Position numbers and translations under genes: made by a program. This document shows positions 49,475 to 64,000 of a stretch of 64,000 bases of DNA, piece by piece. The number at the start of each line of letters is the position of its first letter. Position 1 is the first letter of the stretch. Under the pieces are notes generated by a model. That model was not told the origin of the DNA and searched no databases. It saw only the letters and a program-made list of their open reading frames with translations. Source of the DNA: a virus (taxonomy: Duplodnaviria; Heunggongvirae; Uroviricota; Caudoviricetes); the IMG/VR virus record IMGVR_UViG_3300027125_000001; one strand, given 5' to 3'.

Positions 49475-49475
49475 T

Positions 49476-50280: not shown

Positions 50281-50517
50281 ATGCTAAACACACTTCACAA
50301 ATGGAATGCAGATACTTTGGATCGGTTAGAAGCGATTATTCAACAAATTCGCATTGACCACACAGATCCAAAATCTGCATCCATTTGTGATCTTATTTTG
50401 TCAAATATCAAAATAGCAAAGGTGAATGATGTCGAATACTATGGAGATGATATTGAATATATTCACATGACAAACGATCAATTAAAGAACCTCACAAATT
50501 TGCTTATTCCTAAATGA
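50281..50517 (+). CDS. hypothetical protein
   Basis: 78-aa ORF. Confidence 0.35.
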   Translation: MLNTLHKWNADTLDRLEAIIQQIRIDHTDPKSASICDLILSNIKIAKVNDVEYYGDDIEYIHMTNDQLKNLTNLLIPK

Positions 50518-51272
50518 AATCAACATTCACACTTCTTCTGTGCTCGCTTCTAATAGGTTGCAGCACAGTAAGCCCAAAACCAGAGTATCGTACACCCTCA
50601 CCATCAGCGAAGGTGTACAAACCAACATCGTGGCATATTAATGATTCGAGGGATTTGAAAGAAGCAGAAAAAACATTAGACACAAAAGCAATTAACAAAG
50701 ACGGTGTATACATTCTAGACTTGAAAGGAGGTATCTTAGATGGGACTAAGCAACGAGGAGATGGAGGACAAAGTGAAACACAGGAACCGCTATTTGTAGC
50801 AAATATCCCTCTTGTTGTTAAAAACGGATTCGTCCGAAACAATAAGAATGCGGCGATGTTTGCTAAACCAAATTCAGGTATTGAGTATGTGACATTTCTT
50901 AATGTAGGCGAAGATGCGGTCTCTACAAGCATCAAAGCAAAGAACTTCAAAGTATCTTATTGTGAATTCATGAACAGCAACAAAGGAGATAAGTCAATTC
51001 AACTCAACCAGGCAGATGGTGCAGTGATTAACAACAACATAATCTATGGTGGTATCACTGGAGTTCGAGTTCATGAATCGTCTTGGGCGAACAGCGATAG
51101 CTTAGCTACATGCAGTAAGAACACGTTTATTGGCACGGATACTGCATGGAATGTTTCCAAAGGAATTCTAGAAGTAAAGGATAGTAACACATACAATAAT
51201 GTTCGGATTCCATTCAAAACAAGCAAGGGGGCTACCATCAAAAATGCAGATGGCAAAGTTGTTGAGGACTGA
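50514..51272 (+). CDS. lipoprotein with parallel-beta-helix-like repeats (possible polysaccharide lyase/hydrolase)
   Basis: Signal plus lipobox LLIGC; repeated NNxIxYGGITGV-type segments. Confidence 0.4.
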   Translation: MKSTFTLLLCSLLIGCSTVSPKPEYRTPSPSAKVYKPTSWHINDSRDLKEAEKTLDTKAINKDGVYILDLKGGILDGTKQRGDGGQSETQEPLFVANIPLVVKNGFVRNNKNAAMFAKPNSGIEYVTFLNVGEDAVSTSIKAKNFKVSYCEFMNSNKGDKSIQLNQADGAVINNNIIYGGITGVRVHESSWANSDSLATCSKNTFIGTDTAWNVSKGILEVKDSNTYNNVRIPFKTSKGATIKNADGKVVED

Positions 51273-51322
51273 GCAAACACCTGTTGATTTGAAAACAACC
51301 ACAATTTATAGTAAGTAAACAT

Positions 51323-51598
51323 ATGAGCAAGCTAATTCTGATGCTAATCACTGCACTGACATTGTCAAGTTGTAACACTATTAAACCAACAGTCGAGGGA
51401 CTCGCCGACGAAGCAAAGGTCAACGGATCGATCGATGCGAAGATAGGACAGACAGATAATGGATACGGTGCATCAGTTGGTGCATCTACAAAGATTTATC
51501 GGGTCAAGCCATACTTTAATATCGGCATTGGGTTCTCATGGATTCCAAAAGCAATCACCCCTCTGCCAGAAGATCCGCTTCCACTTCCCACCAAGTGA
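51323..51598 (+). CDS. small lipoprotein
   Basis: MSKLILMLITALTLSSC lipoprotein signal; 91 aa. Confidence 0.4.
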   Translation: MSKLILMLITALTLSSCNTIKPTVEGLADEAKVNGSIDAKIGQTDNGYGASVGASTKIYRVKPYFNIGIGFSWIPKAITPLPEDPLPLPTK

Positions 51599-51642
51599 AT
51601 TAAATGTTATAAAGACATTTGATGACAGGTGCAAATAAATAA

Positions 51643-52179
51643 ATGTTAGAACGCCTAATTGACGCCCTAATAAGTTGCTGGTATTATCTAAAGCCAGCGG
51701 TAGTTATACCTGCGTACAGCGAAGCAGTTGTATTTCGTTTAGGGAAATATCACAGAACACTCAAACCCGGAATACACTTTAAGTTCCCCGTAATTGATGA
51801 AATACATGAGTACTACACTGTCATCACTACAATTAGTTTGCCACCCCAATCCCTTTTCATTCAAAAAAGTAAAACAAATTTAGTTGTCAAGGGTGTTATA
51901 AAATATAAAATTGTCGATGGCAAAACATTCTTCTTAACAGCGAACGCCGCGAAGGATGCACTCGCTGATGTGACACAAGGTATTATTAAAAGAGTTCTTA
52001 CAGAATCGAATCTAGACGAATGTTTCAGTAATACTATTGATCGGCAGCTTACAAAACATGCAGCGTCAGAAGCAAAGAAATGGGGTGTTGAGGTTCAAGC
52101 AGTTACGTTAACTGACATAGCACCTATCCGCAGCTACAGACTGTTTAATGAAACGTCTCCAGATTTCAAATATGATTAA
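51643..52179 (+). CDS. SPFH/Band-7 (prohibitin-like) domain protein
   Basis: N-terminal TM segment followed by EAVVFRLGKYHRTLKPGIHFKFPVIDEI, as in SPFH domains. Confidence 0.45.
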   Translation: MLERLIDALISCWYYLKPAVVIPAYSEAVVFRLGKYHRTLKPGIHFKFPVIDEIHEYYTVITTISLPPQSLFIQKSKTNLVVKGVIKYKIVDGKTFFLTANAAKDALADVTQGIIKRVLTESNLDECFSNTIDRQLTKHAASEAKKWGVEVQAVTLTDIAPIRSYRLFNETSPDFKYD

Positions 52180-52184
52180 AAATT

Positions 52185-52640
52185 ATGAAGAGTATATTAT
52201 TATCATTAGTGTTGGCGATATCTTCGCTGTCATGCAACGGAGCTGATATCCACATTAAGACGACTGCGTATACTCATACAGAAAAGGATCATATTAGGTA
52301 CAAAAGTAAAACAGCATTAGGAACTCCTCTTGGCGTTACATCTGCTGCATCTGACTGGTCTGTCTTTCCAGCAGGAACTATTTTATTGATTGACAATAAA
52401 AGATATGTCATCACCGACTATGGGTCTGCATTGGTAAAGCCTGTTGGCGCAACGCCAGTGGTTGATATCTATCAGCCTTCAAAAAGTGCTATGCGCCGAT
52501 GGGGTGTAAAGTTCTTTAATATCAAAGTGCTTAAATGGGGTAGCCTAAAAGCATCCGCAGATATCCTGAAATCACGCCTTAGATATAGACATTGTAGAAT
52601 AATGTACGAACGCATATTATCCAAGATTCGACGGAAGTAA
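52185..52640 (+). CDS. secreted 3D-domain protein (MltA/RlpA-like peptidoglycan-binding or -cleaving fold)
   Basis: Signal peptide; GTILLIDNKRYVITDYGSAL...VDIY matches the 3D-domain conserved-Asp pattern. Confidence 0.45.
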   Translation: MKSILLSLVLAISSLSCNGADIHIKTTAYTHTEKDHIRYKSKTALGTPLGVTSAASDWSVFPAGTILLIDNKRYVITDYGSALVKPVGATPVVDIYQPSKSAMRRWGVKFFNIKVLKWGSLKASADILKSRLRYRHCRIMYERILSKIRRK

Positions 52641-52812
52641 GTAGTTTCTATAATGAAACTTTTCCTTGCTTCGATTTTATTTTTCCTAACCAGTTGTAGT
52701 GCTATCCATAAAATGGAATACAACAAATTGTCTGAAACAAACAAACAGGTTTACGATTGTTTGAATGACAATTTTCACCATAATGAAAAAATACAAATAA
52801 TTAAATACTTCA

Positions 52813-53163
52813 ATGAATCCCCTTAATGATTTCGGAAATGCAACGATATATGTCTATCATGAAGATGGGCACTATGCCGAACGAAGTTTCTCCAGAAGAA
52901 GCTACGACACATTAACAGCACGATATGATAGGTTCCAAGGCTGGGTGTCTCCATATAGAGATATTGTATATTGGAATCGAGTCTATCGCATAGGCAATAA
53001 CAGACCAACAGTGGTGCCCGACCATATCGTCGTATGGAAACAAGGGGATGCAACTGAGTATAAATACAACAAAGTTGTCATGTCGTTTGTCAATAAAATT
53101 TTGTCATGGATCCCACGAAAATGGGCAGTTCGACATAAAAGATGGCGCTGGCTTAAATGCTAA
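52813..53163 (+). CDS. hypothetical protein
   Basis: 116-aa ORF. Confidence 0.35.
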   Translation: MNPLNDFGNATIYVYHEDGHYAERSFSRRSYDTLTARYDRFQGWVSPYRDIVYWNRVYRIGNNRPTVVPDHIVVWKQGDATEYKYNKVVMSFVNKILSWIPRKWAVRHKRWRWLKC

Positions 53164-53203
53164 AATAGTTGATACACATCACACCTCGAGCTATATTAAC
53201 TAC

Positions 53204-54229
53204 ATGAAGCTCGCCTCTATTGAAACCATCGCTGCTGTCAAACATCATCCCAATGCAGATTCGTTGGATCTCGTTGGAGTTCTAGGATATGAATGCATCA
53301 CTCTTAAAGACAAATATAAGGTAGGTGATCGTGTAGTCTTTATCCAGCCCGATACTGTTCTTCCAGATAAGCCCTGGGCTGAAATCTTTAAGAAAAAGTC
53401 GTCGCGAGTCAAAGCTATCAAGCTTCGAGGCGAATGGTCGTTTGGTATTATCATGGGACTTACCGAAGTAGACTCGTTATTCGATCTTCAAAATGTCGAA
53501 GTTGGTACTGAGATTAGTTCCCATATTGGGGTATATAAGTACGACCCACCTGCTCCAACCTCTCTGGATGCTAAAGGGAATCTGCCGTATAGTCTGGTGA
53601 AGACTGACGAAGAACGATTCCAGAACCTTATCGGGTTTCTCCCGTATGGTGAAAAGGTTGATGTCACCCTGAAGATTGATGGGCAAAGTGCTACTTACTA
53701 CGCACGCAAAGATCCGTCGACCGGAGAATGGTCTACTGGTGTTACTAGTCGCAATCTAGAAATCAAACCAGAAACTAATAACAACTATACCAAGATCGTG
53801 AAGAAATACAATATTCTCGAGAAGCTTCTTGAGTATTGCAAACGGAACGACGTATCACTTGCTCTTCGAGGTGAAATCTATGGAGGCAATATCCAAAATT
53901 TCAGCAAGAACCCACACAGCAAAGGTCCCTTGGACTTTGCCGTATTCAGTGTCTTCAATCTTAATACCCTGAAGTATGAAAAGGAAGGCGACGCTGATTA
54001 CTCCCCGAACGTGGCGGCTGTATTACAAATTCCTCATGTGCCGTTTGTAAACGACAATTACACTGTTGACTTTGAACACTCTGTGAGGCCGTTGCTATCC
54101 GAAGATATGATTAACTTCTACCAAAAAGGAATCAATCAAATCGATGGCAAACCCTTTGAAGGTGTAGTAGTTCGACACAGCAAAGGTTCGTTCAAGATCA
54201 TCAATCTCGATTACGACTCAAACAAATAA
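53204..54229 (+). CDS. KxDG nucleotidyltransferase-family ligase (putative RNA ligase) with N-terminal tRNA-binding-like OB domain
   Basis: N-terminal AAVKHHPNADSLDLVGV...KVGDRVVFIQPDTVLP resembles Myf/EMAP tRNA-binding OB domains; motif I VTLKIDGQSATYYA; ORF open from 53048, start ATG 53204 chosen. Confidence 0.4.
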   Translation: MKLASIETIAAVKHHPNADSLDLVGVLGYECITLKDKYKVGDRVVFIQPDTVLPDKPWAEIFKKKSSRVKAIKLRGEWSFGIIMGLTEVDSLFDLQNVEVGTEISSHIGVYKYDPPAPTSLDAKGNLPYSLVKTDEERFQNLIGFLPYGEKVDVTLKIDGQSATYYARKDPSTGEWSTGVTSRNLEIKPETNNNYTKIVKKYNILEKLLEYCKRNDVSLALRGEIYGGNIQNFSKNPHSKGPLDFAVFSVFNLNTLKYEKEGDADYSPNVAAVLQIPHVPFVNDNYTVDFEHSVRPLLSEDMINFYQKGINQIDGKPFEGVVVRHSKGSFKIINLDYDSNK

Positions 54230-54391
54230 GCATAAATGTTTGCTGATAAGCAAACCCGATTGTATTGTATTAAACAGAAAAGCAATGCCAACCACAATAC
54301 CAACAAAGCCGCCGGCACCAACTAAACCAGCGAAACCGTTCAATCCAATCCGTAAACCAAGCCCAGGGCAACACCCGAAACCAAAAGCGTA

Positions 54392-55459
54392 ATGAATACT
54401 AAAAATACATTTGAGTCGATGACCACTAACGTCAAGTATAGTTATGCAAACAGCGAGCGGCTGGCTCTTGTTTCCGAACACGAGTCCAAGCGCTACGGGA
54501 TTGATCCTATGCTGATGGCGTCGAAGCATTACACCGATCTCGTCAATAAAGTTCTACACTACTCGAAGGCTCCAAGCATCAATCTCATGGAAATGCTTTT
54601 CCAGATGAAGAATGGAGTCAAGATCGCTTACGATCGAGAGAAGGAACATCGTGATGAGCTTTCTCGACTTGCATTGAATACGATTCTAAACATGGAAGAG
54701 TTCAAGTTCATTCGGGATATGATTCAGGATGGAGATCTCAAGATCGATGCGAAGCTTGTAGATATGGATGCACTCGATATCAATGCTGACATGGATGAAC
54801 TTCCGGAGAAAGAAGAAGATCCGGAGATTCGGTTTAGTCTGGCGGAAGTGATGTTTGATGATGATGAGCGGAAAGCTCGGAAAGTCCTCGCAAACAGCAT
54901 TGCTCAAGGCTCAGCACTCAATACACAATATGCGTTTCACTTGGTTGAAGATGAACTAGAACGGCTTGGTTGTGCTTCACCGAATGTATATGGGTTTGTC
55001 ATGTCATACGCAACACTGCTGTATTACACCATGCCAGATGGAATGCCTCCTATGGGAGCCGAACAAGGCGGTCAAGTCGATGTGGCAGAAGATGAAGAAG
55101 GGACGTATGTGATCAAAGCCCGTGGTGTGATCTTCCCAGTACTCCTTCAAGAAATTGTCAAAGGTATTTATCAATATGTTTCTTTGACGGATGGATTGCG
55201 TGATGCAGAAGAAGGAGATGTAGCTTCGGAAATCAACGATATCATCGTGGGGCCTGAAATTGCTAACCTGTTCCGCAAATATATCAAGGAAGACGAATTG
55301 AAATACGTGGTCCCAGCGTTTCAGCAGATGCTCATTACACTGGATTCGGATGAGATCAAGGAAATCTTTACAGCTGAATGCGATAAGAATCCCCTCCGTG
55401 CTATCATCGATAGCATGAAGGAAGAGGAAGAAGATTGTGGTCGCCAATTTGATAGTTGA
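54392..55459 (+). CDS. hypothetical acidic protein
   Basis: 355-aa ORF. Confidence 0.45.
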   Translation: MNTKNTFESMTTNVKYSYANSERLALVSEHESKRYGIDPMLMASKHYTDLVNKVLHYSKAPSINLMEMLFQMKNGVKIAYDREKEHRDELSRLALNTILNMEEFKFIRDMIQDGDLKIDAKLVDMDALDINADMDELPEKEEDPEIRFSLAEVMFDDDERKARKVLANSIAQGSALNTQYAFHLVEDELERLGCASPNVYGFVMSYATLLYYTMPDGMPPMGAEQGGQVDVAEDEEGTYVIKARGVIFPVLLQEIVKGIYQYVSLTDGLRDAEEGDVASEINDIIVGPEIANLFRKYIKEDELKYVVPAFQQMLITLDSDEIKEIFTAECDKNPLRAIIDSMKEEEEDCGRQFDS

Positions 55460-55490
55460 GCAACAACACACCACGTAGTATATTTGTTAT

Positions 55491-55745
55491 ATGAAATGCA
55501 ACTGCGGCAATCCAATCGAACAAGAGCGTCTTGAATTCAAATTGAGCACCTGCGTCCGATGTGCTCGAAGTCAACCTCAAGAGCGACCTCGCGGCATTAT
55601 GTTGTACGGTCACAAGACCGCCGGAGAAATCCAGATTGTCTCTCAAGAGGCATTTCAGGATTATCGAAAGTATAATCCTTGTGGTCGGTATACTGGTCGT
55701 GGATCGGGGCTTCACCGTGTTTCTAGATCCACAGCCAGTATTTAA
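55491..55745 (+). CDS. TraR/DksA-type C4 zinc-finger protein
   Basis: CNCGNPIEQERLEFKLSTCVRCA. Confidence 0.35.
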   Translation: MKCNCGNPIEQERLEFKLSTCVRCARSQPQERPRGIMLYGHKTAGEIQIVSQEAFQDYRKYNPCGRYTGRGSGLHRVSRSTASI

Positions 55746-55749
55746 TAAT

Positions 55750-56004
55750 ATGAATAATATGAATGATGCAAAGGTGTTTACAACTGAGGAATTGATAGGC
55801 AAAGAACTTACGACAAAACTCAAGAAGGACATTGATAAATACGAGATTCGAGGTGAGAAGGCAGACCAGATCATGCAGTGGGCATTACTGACTTTGATAA
55901 ACGCAAACATGCTCGAGATGATCCGCTCTGGTGAAGTAGATGTCGTTAATATAGAACCAGTCGAAATCCAAACATACGAAGCGGTAATAGCCAATCCAAT
56001 ATGA
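55750..56004 (+). CDS. hypothetical protein
   Basis: Listed ORF 55561..56004 trimmed to ATG 55750 to avoid overlap. Confidence 0.35.
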   Translation: MNNMNDAKVFTTEELIGKELTTKLKKDIDKYEIRGEKADQIMQWALLTLINANMLEMIRSGEVDVVNIEPVEIQTYEAVIANPI

Positions 56005-56372
56005 AATACGATCCTGTTGATTATGCTAGAGACGGTGTCGATAACGCATTTCGTTATCTCGGTCAAAAGGTAAATGGCGAATTTGCTTACACCATTTTCG
56101 ATCCAGTGCCGACAATTGGTCGAGATGAAATGTCTCGCAAATTTATTAACCATCTTGCTGAAACAGGAACACTCTATTGTGATCCACAAACCCTAAAAGA
56201 AAGTAAGTATCGTCGCCATCCATTCTTTGAATGGCTTCGAGATGCAATGCCAGATCTTAAATTCATGATGGTAACCTTTATGGACCCGTACTCATACCTC
56301 GTTACTGATGACGATGACATGCAAGAAATCACAAATGAAGCTGTCGACGAAGAAACAGAAGATGAGGATTGA
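56001..56372 (+). CDS. hypothetical protein with acidic C-terminus
   Basis: 123-aa ORF. Confidence 0.4.
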   Translation: MKYDPVDYARDGVDNAFRYLGQKVNGEFAYTIFDPVPTIGRDEMSRKFINHLAETGTLYCDPQTLKESKYRRHPFFEWLRDAMPDLKFMMVTFMDPYSYLVTDDDDMQEITNEAVDEETEDED

Positions 56373-56402
56373 TTAAAACACAACCCACTATTATAATATA
56401 AC

Positions 56403-56705
56403 ATGACAAACATCCGCATCATTCTCAACAACAAAGTCTACGAAGAAAATCAAAGAGACTACCAGATTGTGACGCAGGAATTTGAGTTTAATCTTCCTGC
56501 CAAATATGATGGAGAAGACGCTTGCGAAGCTGCATTTGCCATTACTAATGCACCCGAAGATGCACTAAGTGAGGAATGGGCTGCGATCGCGAGAGAGTAT
56601 CGTCCGTTGCGTTCGGTATCAATTGGCGATGCTGTAGTGGTCAATGGCGTTAAATACTTCTGCATGAATGTCGGGTGGAGGCCGCTGACGAAATCGTCAG
56701 ATTGA
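56403..56705 (+). CDS. hypothetical protein
   Basis: 100-aa ORF. Confidence 0.4.
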   Translation: MTNIRIILNNKVYEENQRDYQIVTQEFEFNLPAKYDGEDACEAAFAITNAPEDALSEEWAAIAREYRPLRSVSIGDAVVVNGVKYFCMNVGWRPLTKSSD

Positions 56706-56942
56706 GAATTGTGCTTAGCTAGTCGCCATGCTGTTAAGTAACAGTATATGGATTACGAAAGCATAAGCCAATTCTTAATGGAAACCTTTCATCTTACTGA
56801 TTTCGAAAGAACTTGGTTGGAATCTAGATTCTCGCTGAGTGAAGACGATGAATCGATATGGTATAAAATCCTCAAGAAATATTATCTGACAAACTAAACA
56901 ATATTTGATTAGATAACAACCACGAGGTATTGTATTATACAC

Positions 56943-57368
56943 ATGACACCAACAAACGATATCGTAGAGATTGCCAAACGCATTGCAATAAAGGCTCACG
57001 AAGGGCAATTTCGGCGAGATGGTGTTACTCCTTATATTAAACATCCCGAAGCTGTTGCATCGAGACTCACAGACAATCCAGGTGTCGAAGCAGTGGCATG
57101 GCTTCATGATGTTCTGGAAGATACGTCAGTGACAGTCGAAGATCTACGAGATCAAGGGATTTCGAACCAAATCATCGATATCGTCATCATGTTGACAAAA
57201 AAGAAAGACATTCCATACGACGAGTATATTAAAACCATTGCGTCGAACCGATTCGCAACAGAAGTCAAAATTGCAGACATGCTAGCAAATCTTAGTGATA
57301 GCCCAACAGAGGACCAAGTACTAAAGTATATGAAATCATTGCTTTATCTTCTCGACTCAAATAAATAA
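56943..57368 (+). CDS. HD-domain (p)ppGpp hydrolase-like protein (small alarmone hydrolase, RelA/SpoT-HD type)
   Basis: KAHEGQFRRDGVTPYIKHPEAVASRL...AWLHDVLEDTSVTVEDL matches the SpoT/Mesh1 HD hydrolase core (H...HD...D). Confidence 0.6.
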   Translation: MTPTNDIVEIAKRIAIKAHEGQFRRDGVTPYIKHPEAVASRLTDNPGVEAVAWLHDVLEDTSVTVEDLRDQGISNQIIDIVIMLTKKKDIPYDEYIKTIASNRFATEVKIADMLANLSDSPTEDQVLKYMKSLLYLLDSNK

Positions 57369-57386
57369 ATCTATCACACGAAACAT

Positions 57387-57462
57387 GGCCACGTAGTCCA
57401 ATGGCAGAGGCAACGGACTTAAAATCCGTAGAGTGTCGGTTCGAGTCCGACCGTGGCTACCA
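57387..57462 (+). tRNA. tRNA, anticodon UAA (Leu-type) on a class I body
   Basis: Acceptor GGCCACG/CGTGGCT (G1-U72), anticodon stem ACGGA/TCCGT, loop CTTAAAA, T-arm GTCGG-TTCGAGT-CCGAC, A73 CCA; 76 nt. Confidence 0.6.
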
Positions 57463-57463
57463 T

Positions 57464-57652
57464 TTATCGAAACGATATAACCTCCCAAGTTACTTTAAGT
57501 ACGCGAATGTCACTGCTACTACCAAGCTCCCCACAAACTCTTGATGCATGTGAATCATATAATTCTTTTGCTTCACGATGGCTATAAGCCTTGTCAATAG
57601 GTTTCCAATCGTCCATGTGATCTCGTCGTTCAATCCAATATTCAGTAATCAT
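57464..57652 (-). CDS. hypothetical small protein
   Basis: 62-aa ORF. Confidence 0.3.
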   Translation of the reverse strand: MITEYWIERRDHMDDWKPIDKAYSHREAKELYDSHASRVCGELGSSSDIRVLKVTWEVISFR

Positions 57653-57819
57653 TATTAATACTTATCACATGAAAAATAAAATTTCAATTAGCTTGCCCGT
57701 TAAAGAATGGATTGCAATCGTTGCACTTCTTGCGTTAAACCTCAAAGATGACATCCGGGAAAAAATTGAAAAGCAATTATTCGAACAGCACGACGAATAA
57801 ACATAAGTAAGTATTATCC

Positions 57820-58344
57820 ATGAGACATTATACCGAGAACAATCGTCTTTGGGAATCATACTCCCAGACTGTACAGATCGCAGAAGCAAGAGAGCTTTAT
57901 GCGGGACAAATTAGACAACTCATTGAGCAATACATTGCTGATCCATCAAGAATCGATGAAGCTTGGTGGGATAAACTCAAGGGCGCTGTTAGTGGCTTGG
58001 GAAGTGCTGCAGGAAGTGCAGTAGGGAGCGCGGCGAAGGCAGTAGGAAGAGGTGCTGCGCAAGTCGGTGCAAACATTAGCAATATTGCCAAGACGGGGGC
58101 AGCTGCAGCAGAGGCGAAGGCACAGGCAAGACAACTGACCAAACTTTTAACACAAGCAGATCAAATTATTCAAAAATTAGTGAGTCTTGACAGTAATTGG
58201 GAAGGTCTTCTAAATACAAGTCTTTCTCTTGATGATTTGAATGACGCAGCATCAAGTATTGTAGGATCGACCGCAGCGTCAGCAGGCGCAGCCCAGGCAG
58301 ACGGCTTTACTAAAGGCGCGATGAATGCAATGAGAACACCATAA
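57820..58344 (+). CDS. hypothetical Ala/Gly-rich protein
   Basis: 174-aa ORF followed by a strong terminator. Confidence 0.4.
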   Translation: MRHYTENNRLWESYSQTVQIAEARELYAGQIRQLIEQYIADPSRIDEAWWDKLKGAVSGLGSAAGSAVGSAAKAVGRGAAQVGANISNIAKTGAAAAEAKAQARQLTKLLTQADQIIQKLVSLDSNWEGLLNTSLSLDDLNDAASSIVGSTAASAGAAQADGFTKGAMNAMRTP

Positions 58345-58380
58345 GATTCAAATTCATTTTCCGAATCATATTTCATAGCA

Positions 58381-58411
58381 AAAAAGCACACTAAAACAGT
58401 GTGCTTTTTTG
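58381..58411 (+). terminator. rho-independent terminator
   Basis: AAAAGCACAC-TAAAAC-AGTGTGCTTTTTTG. Confidence 0.7.
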
Positions 58412-58445
58412 TTGAATCTATACACACCATCATTGATAATAATAT

Positions 58446-58952
58446 ATGCAAGCAACCACAATCAAGAGACCAAAGTTCAGCGAAGATCAAATTGATTATA
58501 CTGCCCCTGATGTTCAGAGGCTCATTGGTAGGTATTGTGATTGGCTAGATGCTTGCAATGAAGGTTCTTCTGATGAAGAATGCATCTCTGATATAAAAAA
58601 GGTTTTCGGAAGGATCTCAAGATATGGGGTATTTACTGATGATGGCTTCAGTCTGGCTAAGTACATGGAAGACCATCTATATTTAACAGGAGATTCTAAT
58701 CTAGTAGAAATCCTCGATGATGCACCAGATATTGCACGGTCACATCATCGGGCTGCTGTTCTCAAGTGGACCACTGAAAACAATTTAATCATACCGGAAA
58801 ATATTGTAGGAAGTAAGTGCATTACCAGTGGAACATATAAGGGGATGTATGTAGTAGGGATCAGGGGTGATGAATATAAGGTAGTGTTGAACGAAAACCA
58901 AAATAAATCCGGGGGATACATTGTTGAATTTGAAAGCATCCAGTTTGAGTAA
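58446..58952 (+). CDS. hypothetical protein
   Basis: 168-aa ORF. Confidence 0.45.
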   Translation: MQATTIKRPKFSEDQIDYTAPDVQRLIGRYCDWLDACNEGSSDEECISDIKKVFGRISRYGVFTDDGFSLAKYMEDHLYLTGDSNLVEILDDAPDIARSHHRAAVLKWTTENNLIIPENIVGSKCITSGTYKGMYVVGIRGDEYKVVLNENQNKSGGYIVEFESIQFE

Positions 58953-58970
58953 TCTTTAGAAAAAATTTAT

Positions 58971-59253
58971 GGGGGTGTAGCTTAAGGGTCAAAGCAGCCG
59001 ACTTTAACGGGTCTTCTTATTAGAAATAGTAAGTTAGCAGAACTTAAATTCAGGGAACGCTTAACGGATAATGCCGATGCCAATCCTGAGCGAAGCCTCG
59101 AAAGAGGAACGTGCAGAGACTATAATAGTTCAATCTTACCGAGTCATGTCGAAGATTAAGGGATAGTCCAGACCACAAACTATACAGGCGGCGAAAGCCG
59201 TAGTGGTAAGCATAATCGGTTGATTGTGGGTTCGAATCCCTCCGCCCCTACCA
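58971..59253 (+). tRNA. tRNA (anticodon CAU after splicing) interrupted by a group I intron in the anticodon loop
   Basis: 5' exon GGGGGTG-TA-GCTT-AAGGGTCA-AAGC-A-GCCGA-CT; 3' exon CATAA-TCGGT-TGATT-GTGGG-TTCGAAT-CCCTC-CGCCCCT-A-CCA; the two exons give a complete 76-nt cloverleaf. Confidence 0.65.
59004..59210 (+). ncRNA. group I self-splicing intron (~207 nt)
   Basis: Exon ends in U, intron ends in G; candidate P1 GACU/GGUC; R-like CAGAGACTATAA and S-like GATAGTCC elements able to form P7 (GACUA/UAGUC); two GAAA-tetraloop hairpins; no ORF. Confidence 0.6.
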
Positions 59254-59327
59254 TATCACTAACATAAGCAGTTGAGTAAACAAACACCACGTTGTATAGT
59301 TATTAACAACCAAAGCATATAATAACT

Positions 59328-59846
59328 ATGATCGATCTGCGTAAGAACACTAAGGTGTCTATGAATAGGCAACCTTTGAAATCTTCTTCTATCTTTGCCT
59401 GTAGAGGTACTAATGTTAAATGGCCAACAATTCGCAAGGCATATCTTAATGATGCGAATGTAGATGCACTGAAAGAACATGCTACCACCAAAGGAAGATC
59501 TATTGTCTTTCTCGACGGCGAGTATATCACGAAGCTTAATAGATATGTAGGCAAGGCCCCGGAAGAAAGAGCAGTGTTCTTCGAATACATGGTTAGTGAC
59601 AAGAATGTGAAAGGAGCGATATTTCTTCTCTGCTGGATTGGTAATTTCCATAATGGTTCAATAGCACACTTTGCGCCTCAATATCCTCAAATGAATTGTT
59701 GGATCGAGACAATGGGATTCGAAGCAGCGACCGCCTTTTTCGAAAAGAAAGCATTTGAATTATACAAAATCATTGTGAGTATTCTTCACGAAGGCAAACC
59801 AATCATCGACGACGAAGTTCGCAAATTTATTTTAGCAAATCAGTAA
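59328..59846 (+). CDS. hypothetical protein
   Basis: 172-aa ORF. Confidence 0.45.
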   Translation: MIDLRKNTKVSMNRQPLKSSSIFACRGTNVKWPTIRKAYLNDANVDALKEHATTKGRSIVFLDGEYITKLNRYVGKAPEERAVFFEYMVSDKNVKGAIFLLCWIGNFHNGSIAHFAPQYPQMNCWIETMGFEAATAFFEKKAFELYKIIVSILHEGKPIIDDEVRKFILANQ

Positions 59847-59908
59847 CACATATCGGTTGATCGAACAAACACCAAGTGGTATAGTTATAAACACCAACGC
59901 ACTTAATT

Positions 59909-60766
59909 ATGAATCTTATCTCAATCGAGCCAATCATCGAAGCAGTTAATAAAGTCACCAAAATCAAAGGCATTGACAATGAAGTGATCACTCAATGGCT
60001 GGTCAAGGCGGAGAAGCGCTTCTTCGAAAGTTCCGGCGAAATGTGCCGACATGAATTGCAAAACATTGTACGTAAATACAATCCAGCGAAAGGCGACGAG
60101 GATTGGAAAAAGAATGCTTATGTCGTGGTATATGATAATGGTCGCATTGATTTCCTTCTTCATGTGTGCGACTTCCTCTTGACCAAAGATGAAAAATATT
60201 TGTCGAAGCTCTACAAGAAGACTCCAGAAGATATCTACTGCAATGAGATTGAAGTCTGGGACGAGCAGATGGCTAACTCCGGGGCGTCTGTCGATAAGAA
60301 TCAATTGGTCGAGGGTGTCGACTATAAGGTGATCCATGTGTTTGAAAACGGACATAAGATCATCGGTGCTCTTACCGCAAAGGTGTGTCAATATGAGGGA
60401 GAGTCAATGGGCCACTGTGCGAAAAATGAATCGTACAAAGTCAAGCCAACTTCAATCATCAGCCTATGGGATCGAGGTAATAATCCTCACGTTACTATGG
60501 AACTCTCCCCACCATCCTCAAAGACCATTGTGCAAATCAAAGGCAAACAAAACCGGGCGCCAGTTGAAAAGTATAAACAATATATCGTTGACTTCATCCA
60601 GAGCGAGAAATATAAGGTCACCCGTGATGGGGAGAACCTTGGAATGGTTTCTTTTGATAATGTGTACTACTTTAAAAATTCCGAAGAATTTGCGAAGGTT
60701 TACGAGACTGAAATTATTCCTCGCCAAAATGAGGCATTCGAGAAAATCAAAAAAATGATCAAGTAA
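59909..60766 (+). CDS. hypothetical protein
   Basis: 285-aa ORF. Confidence 0.45.
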   Translation: MNLISIEPIIEAVNKVTKIKGIDNEVITQWLVKAEKRFFESSGEMCRHELQNIVRKYNPAKGDEDWKKNAYVVVYDNGRIDFLLHVCDFLLTKDEKYLSKLYKKTPEDIYCNEIEVWDEQMANSGASVDKNQLVEGVDYKVIHVFENGHKIIGALTAKVCQYEGESMGHCAKNESYKVKPTSIISLWDRGNNPHVTMELSPPSSKTIVQIKGKQNRAPVEKYKQYIVDFIQSEKYKVTRDGENLGMVSFDNVYYFKNSEEFAKVYETEIIPRQNEAFEKIKKMIK

Positions 60767-60771
60767 GAAGT

Positions 60772-60975
60772 ATGGAGTCCAGCACTTTAGACAGTAAATT
60801 TAAAAAGAACCATTTTTTCCATTTGATCGAACGGATGGTTGCCGTTTATGTCGAAAAGAATGAAAAAGAATATGGTGCAGAGTATTGGGATAAATTTCAA
60901 GATGGGGTAGATGCCGCGGAAGACTTTATTGTCTTTTGGGAAAAGCCCAAGCAACACAATGAAGACAAATTGTAA
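60772..60975 (+). CDS. hypothetical small protein
   Basis: 67-aa ORF. Confidence 0.35.
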   Translation: MESSTLDSKFKKNHFFHLIERMVAVYVEKNEKEYGAEYWDKFQDGVDAAEDFIVFWEKPKQHNEDKL

Positions 60976-61246
60976 GAACTACGTAGAAGATCCATTCATT
61001 TGTGATTCGATGGGCGAACCAAAAGGTCAGTGTAGCAATTGTGGGTATAAGTGGTACGACCACGATCCAGCCGTTATTCCACCCGAACCAACTGCACACG
61101 AATACGTATTAGCAAAAGCAGTAGACTATTTAGCACAGAGCAAAAGACCAAAGGAGAATTGGCCTCAGTTCCTAAACTTAGTCAAAAGTACTAATATCTT
61201 TCGAGAGTCACAAATCAAACGATGGAATGACGAATATAACGCTTGA
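60958..61246 (+). CDS. hypothetical Cys-containing protein
   Basis: Listed ORF 60911..61246 trimmed to ATG 60958; CSNCGYKWYDHD segment. Confidence 0.3.
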
Positions 61247-61276
61247 TGAATAGAGAGCACTGATTTATAATATACT

Positions 61277-61906
61277 ATGGAGAAGGTTATTAACGGCAAT
61301 GTAATTCTTGATGAATTGGTTCTTTTTAAATTGCCGGAATTTCTCAATGGTGCTGTAGTCAATGGGATGTTTTCATGTATAGAAAATTATCTTTATACAT
61401 TAGAGAATAGCCCAAGAGTAGTACAAACATTTGATTGTTATTCAAATAGGCTTAAATCATTAAAAGGAGGCCCCGAGAAAGTAAAAGGATCCTTTGACTG
61501 CTCTTGCAACTCTCTCACTACTCTAGAAGGAGGTCCAATAGAAGTAGGGACAGATTACGATTGTGGTATTAACTCACTCGTGTCATTAGAAGGAGCCCCC
61601 GATGAAGTAGATGGGATTTTCTATTGCAATGATAATAAACTTTCTACACTAGAGGGAGCTCCTAAGAGAGTAGGTGGGGATTTCTATTGCTATAACAACA
61701 ATCTCACCTCTTTGAAAGGTGCACCGAGAATAGTAAAATATTCATTTTCATGCATTGACAATCCTCTGGTTTCATTAGAGGGCATACCATCAGAAATTGG
61801 CGAAGATTTTTATATTCCTTTGAAATTGAAAGAATTTTTCCCAGAAACAGAAATTAGGAAACGGTCGAAAATCCGAGGGTTTGTTAAATATATTAAGGAC
61901 CGGTAA
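61277..61906 (+). CDS. paralog 1 of a tandem repeat-protein family (21-aa Cys-containing repeats)
   Basis: About seven units of a 21-aa repeat (e.g. CYNNNLTSLKGAPRIVKYSF); conserved C-terminal block EFFPETEIRKRSKIRG. Confidence 0.5.
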   Translation: MEKVINGNVILDELVLFKLPEFLNGAVVNGMFSCIENYLYTLENSPRVVQTFDCYSNRLKSLKGGPEKVKGSFDCSCNSLTTLEGGPIEVGTDYDCGINSLVSLEGAPDEVDGIFYCNDNKLSTLEGAPKRVGGDFYCYNNNLTSLKGAPRIVKYSFSCIDNPLVSLEGIPSEIGEDFYIPLKLKEFFPETEIRKRSKIRGFVKYIKDR

Positions 61907-61921
61907 TCCGAATATTTTTAT

Positions 61922-62422
61922 ATGTCGAAAGAAATTCATGGAAGTGTTAATGTTAGTAAATTATACATCACTAAAATACCAGACTTCATGAAAGAGGTTA
62001 TGGTTGTACATGGCATGTTCCATTGCGCTTTCAACTTCCTATCCTCTCTAGAAGGTGCTCCAGAGAAAGTAGGTCGTGGTTTCTATTGCTACAACAACTC
62101 CCTCACATCCTTAGAAGGAGCCCCAGAGAAAGTAGGTGGAAATTACAACTGTACATATAACAGTCTCAAGACCCTAAATGGAGCTCCAGCCAAAGTATAT
62201 GGATATTTTGATTGCTCTTATAACTCTCTCACTTCCTTAGAAGGTGCTCCAGAGGAAGTAGGAGGAAATTTCAGTTGTATTTACAATCCTCTCATTTCAC
62301 TAGAAGGATTACCTAAAAAGATTGGTGAAGATCTTTATATCTCTTCTGCTAAAGGGATCTATTTCACGAAGGAGGAAATTAGAAAAGTGTCAAATATTAA
62401 AGGCAGAATCATCAATGTATAA
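61922..62422 (+). CDS. paralog 2 of the tandem repeat-protein family
   Basis: Five units (FYCYNNSLTSLEGAPEKVGGNYNC...); conserved C-terminal ...GIYFTKEEIRKVSNIKGRIINV. Confidence 0.5.
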   Translation: MSKEIHGSVNVSKLYITKIPDFMKEVMVVHGMFHCAFNFLSSLEGAPEKVGRGFYCYNNSLTSLEGAPEKVGGNYNCTYNSLKTLNGAPAKVYGYFDCSYNSLTSLEGAPEEVGGNFSCIYNPLISLEGLPKKIGEDLYISSAKGIYFTKEEIRKVSNIKGRIINV

Positions 62423-62457
62423 GTTGAGATCGACTACGCCCTAAGCTATAGTATTGT

Positions 62458-62835
62458 ATGATCAAAGTGATCCAAGGAGATGTCGATCTTAGTGATTTGT
62501 ACCTCGAGAAACTACCAGATTTCTTGGAAGATGTGATAGTGAAGGGTGATTTCTTTTGCGGCAACAACTCTCTCACATCCTTAGAAGGGGCTCCAAAGAA
62601 AGTAGGTGGTAATTTCTATTGCCCCTACAACTCTTTCACATCCTTAGAAGGAGCACCGGAGAAAGTAGGTGGTAATTTCTTTTGCCACGACAACAAACTT
62701 ACATCTTTAGAAGGTTTACCTAAAGAGATTGGTAGAATTCTTTGGATCTCTTTTGCAAAAGGGATCCATTTCACAGAAGAGGAAATCAGAAAAGTATCCA
62801 AGATCAAAGGGAGAGTTTATATCATTGAAGAATAA
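62458..62835 (+). CDS. paralog 3 of the tandem repeat-protein family
   Basis: Three to four units; N-terminal MIKVIQGDVDLSDLYLEKLPDFLEDVIVKG and C-terminal ...EEIRKVSKIKGRVYIIEE shared with paralogs 4 and 5. Confidence 0.55.
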   Translation: MIKVIQGDVDLSDLYLEKLPDFLEDVIVKGDFFCGNNSLTSLEGAPKKVGGNFYCPYNSFTSLEGAPEKVGGNFFCHDNKLTSLEGLPKEIGRILWISFAKGIHFTEEEIRKVSKIKGRVYIIEE

Positions 62836-62858
62836 GACGCCCTAATCTATAGTATTGT

Positions 62859-63485
62859 ATGATCAAAGTGATTCAAGAAAACGTCGATCTTAGTGCTTTG
62901 TACCTAGACCGATTGCCAGATTTCTTGGAAGATGTGATAGTGAAGGGTAATTTCCTTTGCTACAACAACTCCCTCACATCCTTGGAAGGGGCGCCAGAGA
63001 AAGTAGAAGGTCATTTCTCTTGCACCAACAACTCCCTCACTTCTCTGAAAGGGGCGCCAAAGGAAGTAGGACGTTATTTCCATTGCTACAACAACTCTCT
63101 GACTTCCCTGAAAGGAGCACCAGAGAAAGTAGGAGGCAGTTTCCATTGCTACAACAACTCTCTCACTTCCTTGGAAGGTGCTCCAGAGAAAGTAGAAGGC
63201 GATTTCTTTTGTGACCAAAACCCTCTCACTTCTCTAGAAGGGTCACCAATGGAAGTAGGTGGTGATTTCTATTGCTACAACAACTCTCTGGCTTCCCTGA
63301 AAGGTGCTCCAGAGAAAGTAGGCGGTGATTTCTCGTGCTACAACTCTCTCACTTCCTTAGAAGGCCTACCTAAAGAGATTGGTGGAAATCTTTGGATCTC
63401 TTTTGCAAAAGGAATCTATTTCACAGAAGAGGAAATTAGAAAAGTATCTAAGATCAAAGAGTATGTTTATATCCTTGAAGAATAA
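62859..63485 (+). CDS. paralog 4 of the tandem repeat-protein family
   Basis: Seven units of FxCYNNSLTSL(E/K)GAP(E/K)(K/E)V(G/E)Gx; N- and C-terminal blocks nearly identical to paralog 3 at the nucleotide level. Confidence 0.55.
   Translation: MIKVIQENVDLSALYLDRLPDFLEDVIVKGNFLCYNNSLTSLEGAPEKVEGHFSCTNNSLTSLKGAPKEVGRYFHCYNNSLTSLKGAPEKVGGSFHCYNNSLTSLEGAPEKVEGDFFCDQNPLTSLEGSPMEVGGDFYCYNNSLASLKGAPEKVGGDFSCYNSLTSLEGLPKEIGGNLWISFAKGIYFTEEEIRKVSKIKEYVYILEE
62944..63363 (+). repeat. in-frame tandem array of ~63-nt repeats inside paralog 4
   Basis: Units such as TTGCTACAACAACTC(C/T)CTCAC(A/T)TCC(T/C)T(G/A)GAAGG(G/A)GC(G/A)CCAGAGAAAGTAG(A/G)AGG... repeated about 6.5 times; similar arrays near 61430-61830, 62020-62340, 62550-62750 and 63600-63920. 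Confidence 0.6.
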
Positions 63486-63508
63486 GACGCCCTAAGCTAT
63501 AGTATTGT

Positions 63509-64000
63509 ATGCCAAAAGTGATTCAAGAAGATGTCGATCTTAGGAGTTTGCACCTAGACCGATTGCCAGATTTTCTCGAAGATGTGATAGTAAAGGGTGA
63601 GTTCTATTGCACCAACAACTCTCTCACATCTTTGGAAGGAGCACCAATGGAAGTGGGTGGGCATTTCTATTGCTCCAACAACTCCCTCACATCCTTGGAA
63701 GGAGCACCAAAGAAAGTAGGTGGGCATTTCTTTTGCTCCAACAACTCCCTCACATCTTTGGAAGGAGCACCAGAGAAAGTAGGTGGAAGTTTCTATTGCT
63801 ACAACAACTCTCTCACTTCCTTGGAAGGAGCTCCAAAGAAAGTAGGTCGTGATTTCTATTGCGACCATAACTCTCTCACTTCCTTAGAAGGCCTACCTAA
63901 AGAGATTGGTGGAAATCTTTGGATCTCTTTTGCAAAAGGAATCTATTTCACAGAAGAGGAAATTAGAAAAGTATCTAAGATCAAAGGGAAAGTTTATATC
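63509..64000 (+). CDS. paralog 5 of the tandem repeat-protein family (runs off the window end)
   Basis: ATG at 63509 preceded by the same conserved GACGCCCTAAGCTATAGTATTGTATG leader as paralogs 3 and 4; same repeat units; no stop before window end. Confidence 0.5.
   Translation, partial: MPKVIQEDVDLRSLHLDRLPDFLEDVIVKGEFYCTNNSLTSLEGAPMEVGGHFYCSNNSLTSLEGAPKKVGGHFFCSNNSLTSLEGAPEKVGGSFYCYNNSLTSLEGAPKKVGRDFYCDHNSLTSLEGLPKEIGGNLWISFAKGIYFTEEEIRKVSKIKGKVYI

What the first reader, a model, noticed from the sequence alone, without database searches (positions are those of the whole stretch)
61277..64000. Five tandem paralogs built from variable numbers of a 21-aa / 63-nt Cys-containing repeat, with near-identical leaders and termini
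Consecutive + strand genes of 209, 166, 125, 208 and more than 164 aa share an N-terminal block (MIKVIQ(E/G)xVDLSxLYL(D/E)(K/R)LPDFLEDVIVKG) and a C-terminal block (LPKEIGGNLWISFAKGIYFTEEEIRKVSKIK...). Between these they contain 3-7 copies of F(Y/H/S)C(Y/T)NNSLTSL(E/K)GAP(E/K)(K/E)V(G/E)Gx. Intergenic leaders and the first ~100 nt of paralogs 3-5 are nearly identical at the DNA level (for example GACGCCCTAAGCTATAGTATTGTATGATCAAAGTGAT). That implies recent duplication or gene conversion, with repeat-number variation generated by slippage or recombination. Such a cassette could provide rapidly variable receptor-binding or anti-defence proteins. The repeat itself, with a conserved Cys and an NNSLTSLEGAP core, is not one I can assign to a known family.
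Basis: seen in the sequence. Interest (0 to 1): 0.7.

Follow-up and report, generated by a model that had tools for sequence, protein, structure and literature searches.

The report
Variable leucine-rich-repeat gene cassette in phage
A large freshwater phage carries a row of 9 to 13 or more small genes for leucine-rich-repeat binding proteins whose contact-surface residues are hypervariable and whose repeat and gene numbers change by recombination between near-identical genomes, so it looks like a phage-made library of protein binders, though its targets are unknown.

Summary
Five consecutive + strand genes (209, 166, 125, 208 and 167 aa, the last cut by the window end) are built from 3-7 copies of a 63-nt/21-aa Cys-containing unit between a shared head and tail.

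The window shows only the start of the cassette. Near-identical ~195-kb phage contigs carry 9 to at least 11 paralogs, and joining overlapping contigs suggests about 13.
- Paralogs 1-4 are invariant.
- From paralog 5 onward, assemblies differ by in-frame two-repeat deletions, gene fusions and a ~2.2-kb deletion.
- All of these are clean recombinants with 24-81-nt crossover zones.

Amino-acid variation sits at four positions (x in xFxCxxN), the concave-face ligand positions of LRRs. The framework is under purifying selection.

The proteins are soluble and acidic, lack signal peptides, have sigma-70-like promoter matches of their own, and lie in the replication/nucleotide-metabolism arm. A PcfJ-like gene lies just upstream, and other phages fuse that domain to the same LRR module.

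Best reading: an intracellular, recombination-diversified binder family, possibly specificity modules for the PcfJ-like protein. The targets are unknown.

The parts
59909..60766 (+). PcfJ-like protein gene (285 aa), a possible functional partner of the LRR paralogs
   Evidence: Pfam PF14284 PcfJ, E 1.9e-6, 28.2 bits against a cutoff of 25. Its homologues are fused N-terminally to the same LRR module in at least 9 of the top 150 family representatives. One is P0194, on a 238.7-kb phage contig.
61243..61271 (+). sigma-70-like promoter match (TTGATG-17-TATAAT) ending 5 nt before the ATG of paralog 1; no Shine-Dalgarno
   Evidence: Consensus scan and upstream sequences. This is a consensus match only.
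61277..61906 (+). LRR paralog 1, 209 aa, 7 units, diverged caps
   Evidence: NCBIfam gives partial hits to the LRR parts of SspH2 and InlJ. The protein is identical in 5 assemblies.
61922..62422 (+). LRR paralog 2, 166 aa, 5 units, diverged caps
62424..62452 (+). sigma-70-like promoter match (TTGAGA-17-TATAGT) ending 5 nt before the ATG of paralog 3
62458..62835 (+). LRR paralog 3, 125 aa, 3 units (the minimal form: N-cap, 3 LRRs, C-cap)
   Evidence: Used as the query for the family-size search.
62825..62853 (+). sigma-70-like promoter match (TTGAAG-17-TATAGT); the -35 hexamer lies in the end of the preceding gene
62859..63485 (+). LRR paralog 4, 208 aa, 7 units (the last unit is one residue short)
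   Evidence: AlphaFold2 model with pLDDT 97.7 and pTM 0.92. LRR fold matches. The exact protein is indexed in 61 blocks of the collection; 24 contigs were read.
63475..63503 (+). sigma-70-like promoter match (TTGAAG-17-TATAGT) before paralog 5
63509..64000 (+). LRR paralog 5, cut by the window end. It is 167 aa with 5 units in the identical contigs L008 and L009, and 125 aa with 3 units in L002.
   Evidence: Pfam LRR_4 (30.9 bits against 27) and LRRNT (32.6 against 25.8) are above their cutoffs.

Best explanation
The region is the 5' part of a tandem multigene family of small, soluble leucine-rich-repeat (LRR) proteins. It lies in a ~195-kb phage known only from metagenome contigs.

Anatomy. 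Each protein has three parts:
- an N-cap, which is a degenerate LRR (VDLSxLYLxxLPDFLEDVIVKG);
- 3-7 units of 21 residues (xFxCxxNxLTSLEGAPxxVGG), in which Cys occupies a core Leu position, a cysteine ladder as in internalin J;
- a C-cap (LPKEIGGNLWISFAKGIYFTEEEIRKVSKIKG...).

How it diversifies. The solenoid framework is conserved. The four exposed residues of the concave beta-strand (positions 1, 3, 5 and 6 of the unit) are hypervariable, so each paralog presents a different binding surface. Homologous recombination between the 63-nt units and between paralogs adds and removes units, fuses genes and deletes blocks. The repertoire therefore differs between otherwise identical genomes.

Likely role. 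This part is inferred and was not tested. The proteins are made inside the infected cell, each from its own host-type promoter. They bind proteins of the host or of competing elements. They may act as stand-alone blockers, or as interchangeable specificity modules for the PcfJ-like protein encoded just upstream.
For: Shown:
- Variability. Across 47 unique units, entropy is 1.8-3.0 bits at positions 1, 3, 5 and 6 and at most 1.3 bits elsewhere. A crude pN/pS is 4.8 at those four positions and 0.22 in the framework.
- Cassette content. It holds 9 paralogs in L008 and at least 11 in L009, although both are 100% identical to the window over 11,142 nt upstream.
- Recombinant variants. All variants are exact-prefix/exact-suffix recombinants with 24-81-nt crossover zones, shorter than the k=141 of the megahit contigs. 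The configurations recur in 3, 13 and 8 contigs.
- Recent exchange. Paralogs within one assembly share exact 325- and 345-nt stretches.
- Protein properties. No transmembrane segment or signal peptide; pI 4.8-7.6.
- Expression signals. A -35/-10 match ends 5 nt before four of the five ATGs, with no Shine-Dalgarno.
- Neighbourhood. ThyX, phosphoesterase, RNA ligase, DNA ligase and RNR lie nearby, not structural genes.
- Fusions. PcfJ-like plus LRR fusions occur elsewhere. The linker of P0194 (IHLAGLFLKELPDFSDIIVKG) matches the window N-cap.
- Recurrence. Other huge phages hold clustered paralog families of the same unit.
Against: - No target, expression timing or phenotype is known.
- The promoters are consensus matches only.
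- The pN/pS figure is crude. The units are paralogous and subject to gene conversion, and the synonymous counts at the variable codons are tiny.
- All population variants come from short-read metagenome assemblies, most of which break inside the cassette. Some configurations could be mis-joins, above all in the JGI contigs, whose k is unknown.
- The PcfJ link rests on gene fusion elsewhere and on adjacency here. No PcfJ-like gene was found within the fetched flanks of LRR genes in the other phages examined, and none by tblastn in 50,697 deposited phage genomes.
- Paralogs 1-4, the bulk of the stated coordinates, are invariant across assemblies.
Confidence: 0.6

Rival explanations
1. The paralogs are virion-associated host-recognition or adhesion proteins, such as tail-fibre accessories or decoration proteins. 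Their variable LRR faces bind cell-surface receptors, as internalins do.
For: LRRs of the internalin type bind surface receptors. InlJ is the best sequence-level structural relative. LRR/beta-helix domains are proposed for host recognition in Goslar DUF7941 proteins (bioRxiv 10.64898/2026.04.21.720040). Hypervariable binding faces are typical of receptor-binding proteins.
Against: The proteins are 125-209 aa and consist of caps and repeats only, with no anchor or trimerisation domain. They lie about 44 kb from the large tail-fibre-like genes (662-17360), among nucleotide-metabolism and small unknown genes. Each has its own sigma-70-like promoter match. Fusion partners elsewhere are PcfJ-like or other non-structural domains.
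Confidence: 0.15
2. The differences in repeat and gene number between assemblies are assembly artefacts: short-read assemblers collapse or mis-join repeats. The cassette is in fact fixed.
For: Most contigs break inside the cassette. Paralogs share exact stretches of up to 345 nt, longer than any k-mer used. The one assembly that spans the cassette (L008) is also the shortest version.
Against: Each variant junction has only 24-81 nt of shared identity, less than k=141, so the junction k-mers must exist in reads of the megahit assemblies. Two different breakpoints give the 170-aa form of the last paralog. Each configuration recurs in several contigs (3, 13 and 8).
Confidence: 0.12
3. The variable codons are written by a targeted mutagenesis system such as a diversity-generating retroelement (DGR), rather than by selection on ordinary mutations plus recombination.
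For: At the three most variable codons (1, 3 and 5) almost only the first two bases vary and the third base is almost fixed: NNT TTC NNT TGC NNC NAC AAC. This resembles AAY-to-NNY diversification. PcfJ-like domains occur upstream of DGR variable regions in CPR bacteria (PMC5758913).
Against: Many adenines in the unit are invariant, including AAC at codon 7, the last two bases of codon 13 and codon 18. There are more than 47 distinct units in up to 13 genes, not one variable region beside a template. No reverse transcriptase was found among the window ORFs scanned.
Confidence: 0.03
4. The ORFs are decaying or selfish repeat DNA with no protein function.
For: No function is known. PHROGs and Pfam give only 'unknown' or sub-threshold hits for most paralogs.
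Against: All reading frames are intact in every assembly. The framework pN/pS is 0.22, with abundant synonymous change. All indels are in-frame multiples of 63 nt. The fold prediction is near-perfect. The family has 15,255 cluster representatives.
Confidence: 0.03

Closest known systems
Internalin J (InlJ) cysteine-ladder LRR domain, Listeria monocytogenes (PDB 3bz5)
   Different: InlJ is a secreted, cell-wall-anchored 851-aa adhesin with a signal peptide, an internalin cap and further domains. The phage proteins are 125-209 aa, have no signal peptide and carry their own caps. The NCBIfam InlJ model scores 20 bits against a cutoff of 1700.
LRR domains of type III effectors YopM, IpaH, SspH and SlrP (20-residue 'bacterial' LRR class)
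   Different: There is no NEL ubiquitin-ligase domain and no secretion signal. The unit is 21 residues, not 20, and has a Cys ladder. Here the LRR module is a free-standing gene present in many copies.
Highly internally conserved repeat arrays of fungal NLR genes (het-d/het-e WD40 repeats of Podospora) and lamprey variable lymphocyte receptors
   Same: Near-identical repeat units have a few hypervariable positions on the binding face. Repeat number and order are reshuffled by recombination between units and paralogs, and the caps are constant. This is what the cassette works like. The fungal case appears in PMC11761791 and PMC13449251, of which only titles and abstracts were seen. The VLR comparison rests on general knowledge.
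   Different: The repeat fold differs in the fungal case (WD40), and VLRs use somatic assembly. Those systems are host immune receptors, whereas this one is encoded by a virus of bacteria and its role is unknown.
LRR proteins annotated in dsDNA viruses and uncultured phages (BFVD entries A0A6J7X691, A0A6J7X9U5, A0A6J5LZF9; survey by Matsushima et al., Arch Virol 2021;166:43, cited in PMC10945359)
   Same: Viral LRR proteins with short units are already catalogued. The BFVD matches are all LRR proteins of phages and giant viruses.
   Different: None has a described function. I found no description of a tandem, recombining, hypervariable cassette or of the PcfJ link. The Matsushima paper could not be read.

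Membership tests
Leucine-rich repeat (LRR) superfamily | Tandem 20-30-residue units with the LxxLxLxxN/CxL core | tested here: met
   The unit xFxCxxNxLTSLEGAPxxVGG has F, C, N and L at the core positions and is invariant or nearly so in 47 unique units.
Leucine-rich repeat (LRR) superfamily | Curved solenoid fold with one beta-strand per unit on the concave face | tested here: met
Leucine-rich repeat (LRR) superfamily | Score above the Pfam LRR gathering thresholds | tested here: inconclusive
   Only paralog 5 passes (LRR_4 30.9 against 27; LRRNT 32.6 against 25.8). Paralogs 1, 2 and 4 score 14.7-17.4 bits and paralog 3 has no hit. The generic models fit this subtype poorly.
InlJ-type cysteine-ladder LRR | 21-residue unit with a conserved Cys at a core Leu position | tested here: met
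   The profile alignment to 3bz5 places Cys on Cys over about 10 units, E 3.6e-18.
Internalin family (class 1 internalin InlJ) | Signal peptide, internalin N-cap, inter-repeat region and cell-wall anchor | tested here: not met
   There is no hydrophobic N-terminus. The proteins end about 45 residues after the last unit. NCBIfam NF033187 scores 20 bits against a cutoff of 1700.
IpaH/SspH NEL E3 ligase effectors | C-terminal NEL ubiquitin-ligase domain after the LRR domain | tested here: not met
   Only the LRR part of NF011917 (SspH2) is matched, at 40.6 bits against 1243. The proteins are too short to hold a NEL domain.
Diversity-generating retroelement target | Reverse transcriptase and template repeat nearby; adenine-specific differences | tested here: not met
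   No reverse transcriptase among the 20 larger window ORFs scanned. Many adenines of the unit are invariant. The rest of the ~195-kb genome was not scanned.
Known anti-phage defence proteins (PADLOC-DB) | Match to a defence-system model | tested here: not met
   No hit at E <= 0.01 for paralogs 1-4.
PcfJ-like plus LRR fusion architecture | A PcfJ-like domain (PF14284) followed by the N-cap, 21-residue Cys LRRs and, in some members, the C-cap in one polypeptide | tested here: not met
   In the window the PcfJ-like gene (59909-60766) and the LRR genes are separate ORFs about 500 nt apart, with two small ORFs between them. Fused forms exist elsewhere (P0138, P0194 and others). Physical association of the split parts could not be tested.

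The most novel reading that the evidence does not exclude
Large phages keep a recombining repertoire of LRR 'specificity cassettes' that dock onto, or act alongside, a PcfJ-like effector. The phage population thereby carries many alternative binders against variable host proteins, for example defence sensors or surface-exclusion factors. This would be a virus-encoded, germline-recombining counterpart of LRR-based immune receptor repertoires. It would also give a first functional handle on the uncharacterised PcfJ-like domain, which is likewise found upstream of DGR variable regions.
Probability: 0.15. Interest if true: 0.85.

Novelty: new variant of a known kind. Interest (0 to 1): 0.55.

Why it matters
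LRR solenoids are the binding scaffold of innate and adaptive immune receptors and of bacterial effectors. Their use by phages is almost unexplored.

Several features of this case stand out:
- The framework is conserved and only the ligand-face residues vary.
- The repertoire differs between genomes that are otherwise 100% identical.
- The same module is fused in other phages to an uncharacterised domain (PcfJ-like) that also sits upstream of DGR variable regions.

The family is large: more than 15,000 clusters at 50% identity, nearly all unannotated. Assigning it a role would therefore annotate many phage genes. It would also point to what these phages need to recognise inside or on their hosts.

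The finding is directly testable, because the phage is abundant in a series of public freshwater-type metagenomes and two cultured Vibrio phages (VB_VaC_TDDLMA and SRILMA) carry relatives.

Tried and rejected
- Megablast of 57000-64000 against 50,697 phage records gave no match, so there is no close sequenced relative.
- PHROGs returned only families of unknown function.
- PADLOC gave no hit.
- NCBIfam matched only partial LRR stretches of SspH2, InlJ and SlrP.
- The search for related loci with the whole alignment failed because no stretch was conserved enough. With the single protein it found one weak Planctomycetaceae hit in 185,579 species genomes. That scan used query-specific peptides, so it says little about distant bacterial relatives.
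- The afdb50 fold library was unavailable.
- Literature searches for LRRs in jumbo phages, hypervariable phage LRR paralogs and phage LRR anti-defence found nothing on this family. Matsushima 2021 is not held.
- The PcfJ function searches were swamped by C. elegans pCFJ plasmids. 'PcfJ-like' gave one paper and PF14284 gave none.
- The PcfJ-like profile against PDB sequences gave nothing significant.
- tblastn of the PcfJ-like protein against phages gave no match.
- Homology between the PcfJ-like domain and a second N-terminal fusion domain (motif GxGTKWCI; PHROGs 28193 and 17056) was tested by hhalign and not supported (probability 0.8%).
- The non-LRR terminal regions of longer homologues (three C-terminal, two N-terminal) gave no Pfam hit above threshold.
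- The DGR idea was considered because of the NNY pattern and rejected.
Full report
**1. What is in the sequence**

The + strand of 61277-64000 holds five back-to-back ORFs:
- 61277-61906, 209 aa
- 61922-62422, 166 aa
- 62458-62835, 125 aa
- 62859-63485, 208 aa
- 63509 to the window end, 164 aa in the window

Tandem Repeats Finder reports period-63 arrays inside paralogs 2-5. It also reports a 401-nt period, which reflects duplication of whole genes. The proteins contain 7, 5, 3, 7 and 5 units of 21 residues.

The shared head (MIKVIQxxVDLSxLYLxxLPDFLEDVIVKG), the shared tail (LPKEIGGNLWISFAKGIYFTEEEIRKVSKIKG...) and the 23-nt spacers are common to paralogs 3-5. Their leader plus first 96 nt is 81-87% identical. 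The tails of paralogs 4 and 5 are 97% identical over 115 nt. Paralogs 1 and 2 are older, diverged versions with 47-57% identity in the same stretch.

The reverse-strand and off-frame ORFs listed inside the arrays are by-products of a stop-free repeat.

**2. What the repeat is**

It is a leucine-rich repeat (LRR).
- Pfam gives only weak LRR_4 and LRRNT hits. Only paralog 5 is above threshold.
- An AlphaFold2 model of paralog 4, built on 52 homologues, has mean pLDDT 97.7 and pTM 0.92. It shows short strands recurring every 21 residues, plus capping elements at both ends.
- Foldseek against the PDB returns the LRR domains of SspH1, IpaH7.8, IpaH1.4 and YopM.
- At sequence level the family profile hits internalin J (3bz5) at E 3.6e-18. 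The conserved Cys of the phage unit aligns with the Cys of InlJ's 'cysteine ladder'.

The unit xFxCxxNxLTSLEGAPxxVGG is therefore a 21-residue LxxLxCxxNxL-type LRR. The N-terminal block is a degenerate LRR that serves as a cap, and the C-terminal block is a strand-helix-strand cap.

The proteins are not internalins or NEL effectors. They lack a signal peptide, an anchor and a NEL domain.

**3. Genomic setting**

The window is from a large phage. It contains:
- 29 tRNA genes;
- ribonucleotide reductase large and small subunits, the large one with an intein-like end, plus ThyX, DNA ligase, RNA ligase, a glycosyltransferase and large lectin- or pectate-lyase-like proteins.

No deposited phage is similar at DNA level. 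The RNA ligase is at most 33% identical to any deposited phage protein.

Near-identical contigs of 193-196 kb occur in many JGI and ENA metagenomes. The cassette lies in the replication and nucleotide-metabolism arm, within a long run of small + strand genes. It is about 44 kb from the tail-fibre-like genes.

Four of the five paralogs are preceded by a -35/-10 match (TTGAxx-17-TATART). The -10 hexamer ends 5 nt before the ATG, and there is no Shine-Dalgarno sequence. The same layout is seen at several neighbouring genes. This suggests leaderless or non-SD translation and individual transcription. These are consensus matches only.

The proteins are acidic to neutral, soluble and without hydrophobic segments.

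**4. The cassette is larger than the window, and it varies**

Contigs that are 100% identical to the window over 11,142 nt (L008, L009) or 99.8-99.9% identical (L002, L010) continue differently. Gene sizes in aa are:

| Contig | Order of paralogs | Note |
|---|---|---|
| L008 | 209-166-125-208-167-146-125-125-170 | 9 genes; the only assembly that spans the cassette |
| L009 | 209-166-125-208-167-146-125-167-146-188-(>=164) | at least 11 genes |
| L010 | ...208-167-125-167... | one gene fewer through a fusion |
| L002 | ...208-125-146-125... | paralog 5 has 3 units instead of 5 |

The 3' end of the cassette appears as 146-188-188-125-170 (L003) or 188-188-125-212 (L004). Joining the overlapping parts gives about 13 genes in the long form. 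Gene sizes step by 21 aa: 125, 146, 167, 188 and 209, plus the 170/212-aa last paralog.

Paralogs 1-4 are identical proteins in all five assemblies. All variation starts at paralog 5.

Every variant is an exact-prefix/exact-suffix recombinant of other forms, with a shared crossover zone of only 24-81 nt. The 170-aa last gene arises from the 212-aa form by two different 126-nt deletions. The crossover zones are shorter than k=141 of the megahit contigs, and the three configurations recur in 3, 13 and 8 contigs. Most of this variation is therefore probably real, but only read-level or long-read evidence can settle it.

Within a single assembly, non-adjacent paralogs share exact 325- and 345-nt stretches. 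This is direct evidence of recent duplication or gene conversion. It also explains why assemblies break here.

**5. Where the proteins vary**

Across 47 unique 63-nt units of the young paralogs, F2, C4, L12, G14 and P16 are invariant. N7, L9, T10 and S11 are nearly so. Positions 1, 3, 5 and 6 carry 7-10 different residues each, with entropy 1.8-3.0 bits.

In the LxxLxLxxN register these are the x positions that flank the core residues on the beta-strand. In LRR proteins generally these are the solvent-exposed concave-face positions that contact ligands and that are hypervariable in plant R proteins and VLRs (established knowledge).

A crude Nei-Gojobori count gives pN/pS 4.8 at those four codons and 0.22 elsewhere. 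The framework shows plentiful synonymous change, so it is under purifying selection.

One oddity remains. At the three most variable codons (1, 3 and 5) the third base is almost fixed, giving NNT TTC NNT TGC NNC NAC AAC. I considered a DGR-like mechanism and rejected it for three reasons. Many adenines are invariant. There are dozens of distinct units in many genes. No reverse transcriptase was seen in the ORFs scanned. The pattern may reflect two-fold-degenerate codons plus recent common ancestry, but I count it as not fully explained.

**6. The wider family and a fusion clue**

The family is very large. There are 5,897 hits among the scored candidates in the 90%-identity clustered database, nearly all unnamed. 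There are 15,255 representatives at 50% identity with E <= 1e-3, and 8,247 with E <= 1e-10.

Relatives occur in Vibrio phages VB_VaC_TDDLMA and SRILMA (196 kb), in the 642-735-kb huge phages LR756501-3, in Lak phages, and on IMG/VR contigs of 84-597 kb. Clustered paralog families recur elsewhere: 12 paralogs in 16 kb of a 597-kb contig and 4 in tandem in LR756501, each family with its own caps.

Among the top 150 representatives, at least 9 carry an N-terminal PcfJ-like domain (PF14284) directly followed by the N-cap and LRRs. In the window, a free-standing PcfJ-like gene (59909-60766; 28.2 bits against a cutoff of 25) lies about 500 nt upstream of paralog 1.

P0194 is a fusion encoded on a 238.7-kb phage contig next to the terminase. 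Its linker, IHLAGLFLKELPDFSDIIVKG, matches the window N-cap VDLSDLYLEKLPDFLEDVIVKG.

PcfJ-like domains have no known function. The one paper found reports them upstream of DGR variable regions in CPR bacteria (PMC5758913), which is a second case of this domain joined to a diversified binding module.

Other homologues carry a different N-domain (GxGTKWCI motif; PHROGs 28193 and 17056, unknown function). Its relationship to PcfJ was not supported.

Taken together, the LRR unit behaves as a portable recognition module.

**7. Mechanism proposed**

Shown:
- capped LRR solenoids;
- hypervariable concave-face positions on a conserved framework;
- recombination between units and paralogs that changes unit and gene number among otherwise identical genomes.

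Inferred:
- The proteins act inside the infected cell, because they have no export signals, sit in a non-structural neighbourhood and have host-type promoter matches.
- They bind variable protein targets.
- They act either alone, as blockers or decoys, or as specificity modules for the PcfJ-like protein.

Rivals are a virion adhesin role (0.15), assembly artefact for the variation (0.12), DGR-type mutagenesis (0.03) and non-functional repeats (0.03).

**8. Novelty and verdict**

The fold and the mode of diversification are both known kinds: LRRs, and repeat shuffling with hypervariable binding positions as in fungal NLR repeats and VLRs. Viral LRR proteins are already catalogued.

I could not find any prior description of the following:
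- a phage-encoded, tandem, recombining LRR repertoire with variation confined to the ligand face;
- its link to the PcfJ-like domain.

I rate it a new variant of a known kind, interest 0.55. Its evolutionary inference is supported. Its statement that the repeat is unassignable is wrong. Its functional suggestion is plausible but untested, and the evidence leans toward an intracellular rather than a receptor-binding role.

Noticed in passing
window 33446-41791 (- strand) and 57387-57462 (+): A bank of 29 tRNA genes covers most amino acids, 28 of them in one minus-strand cluster. This is typical of jumbo phages.
   Followed up: no
window 25722-27929 (-), with 24584-25672 (-) and 24049-24642 (-) downstream: The ribonucleotide reductase large-subunit ORF ends in an intein-splicing-domain hit (aa 641-732). 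The next ORFs may be the rest of an intein or homing endonuclease and the C-terminal part of the RNR. The terminase of the unrelated phage contig L017 also shows a faint intein hit.
   Followed up: no
window 44098-63509, + strand gene starts: Most small + strand genes lack a Shine-Dalgarno sequence. Many have a TATAAT-like hexamer ending 4-6 nt before the ATG, for example at 47812, 48683, 56943, 58446, 59328, 61277, 62458, 62859 and 63509. This suggests leaderless mRNAs or a host that does not use SD initiation.
   Followed up: partly
window 59909-60766 (+): This is a PcfJ-like protein gene (PF14284). The domain has invariant E, M-x-x-C, S-x-x-D, P-H-x-T-x-E, Q-x-x-G and two Y residues across its LRR-fused homologues. 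It has no solved-structure relative by sequence, no match in 50,697 deposited phages and no function in the literature.
   Followed up: partly
63-nt repeat units of window 62458-64000 and loci L002-L010: In the xFxCxxN segment the third codon positions are almost invariant and position-specific (NNT TTC NNT TGC NNC NAC AAC), while the first and second positions vary freely. Third positions in the framework part vary normally. This is not fully explained.
   Followed up: partly
L013 (IMGVR_UViG_3300020045_008999, 597 kb) 50-15396; L015 (LR756501.1) 16986-20528: Other huge phages hold their own clustered families of 21-residue Cys-LRR proteins with family-specific caps. L013 has 12 paralogs in 16 kb on both strands, all ending ...KYQRHFEIWNDDLxLNxENFxxLLDEIxDGLE. 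L015 has 4 tandem paralogs.
   Followed up: partly
window 662-13641 (+): Three very large ORFs (1090, 2490 and 757 aa) carry Laminin_G_3/pentaxin and pectate-lyase-like adhesive domain hits. They are probably fibre or host-recognition proteins. A further pectate-lyase hit lies at 50514-51272.
   Followed up: no
L003-L008, downstream of the cassette (e.g. L004 3209-7881): The genes after the last LRR paralog include repeated sizes (108/145/108 aa and 107/107/186 aa) that may be further small paralog families. Some genes there differ between contigs, for example 145 against 156 aa and 162 against 173 aa.
   Followed up: no
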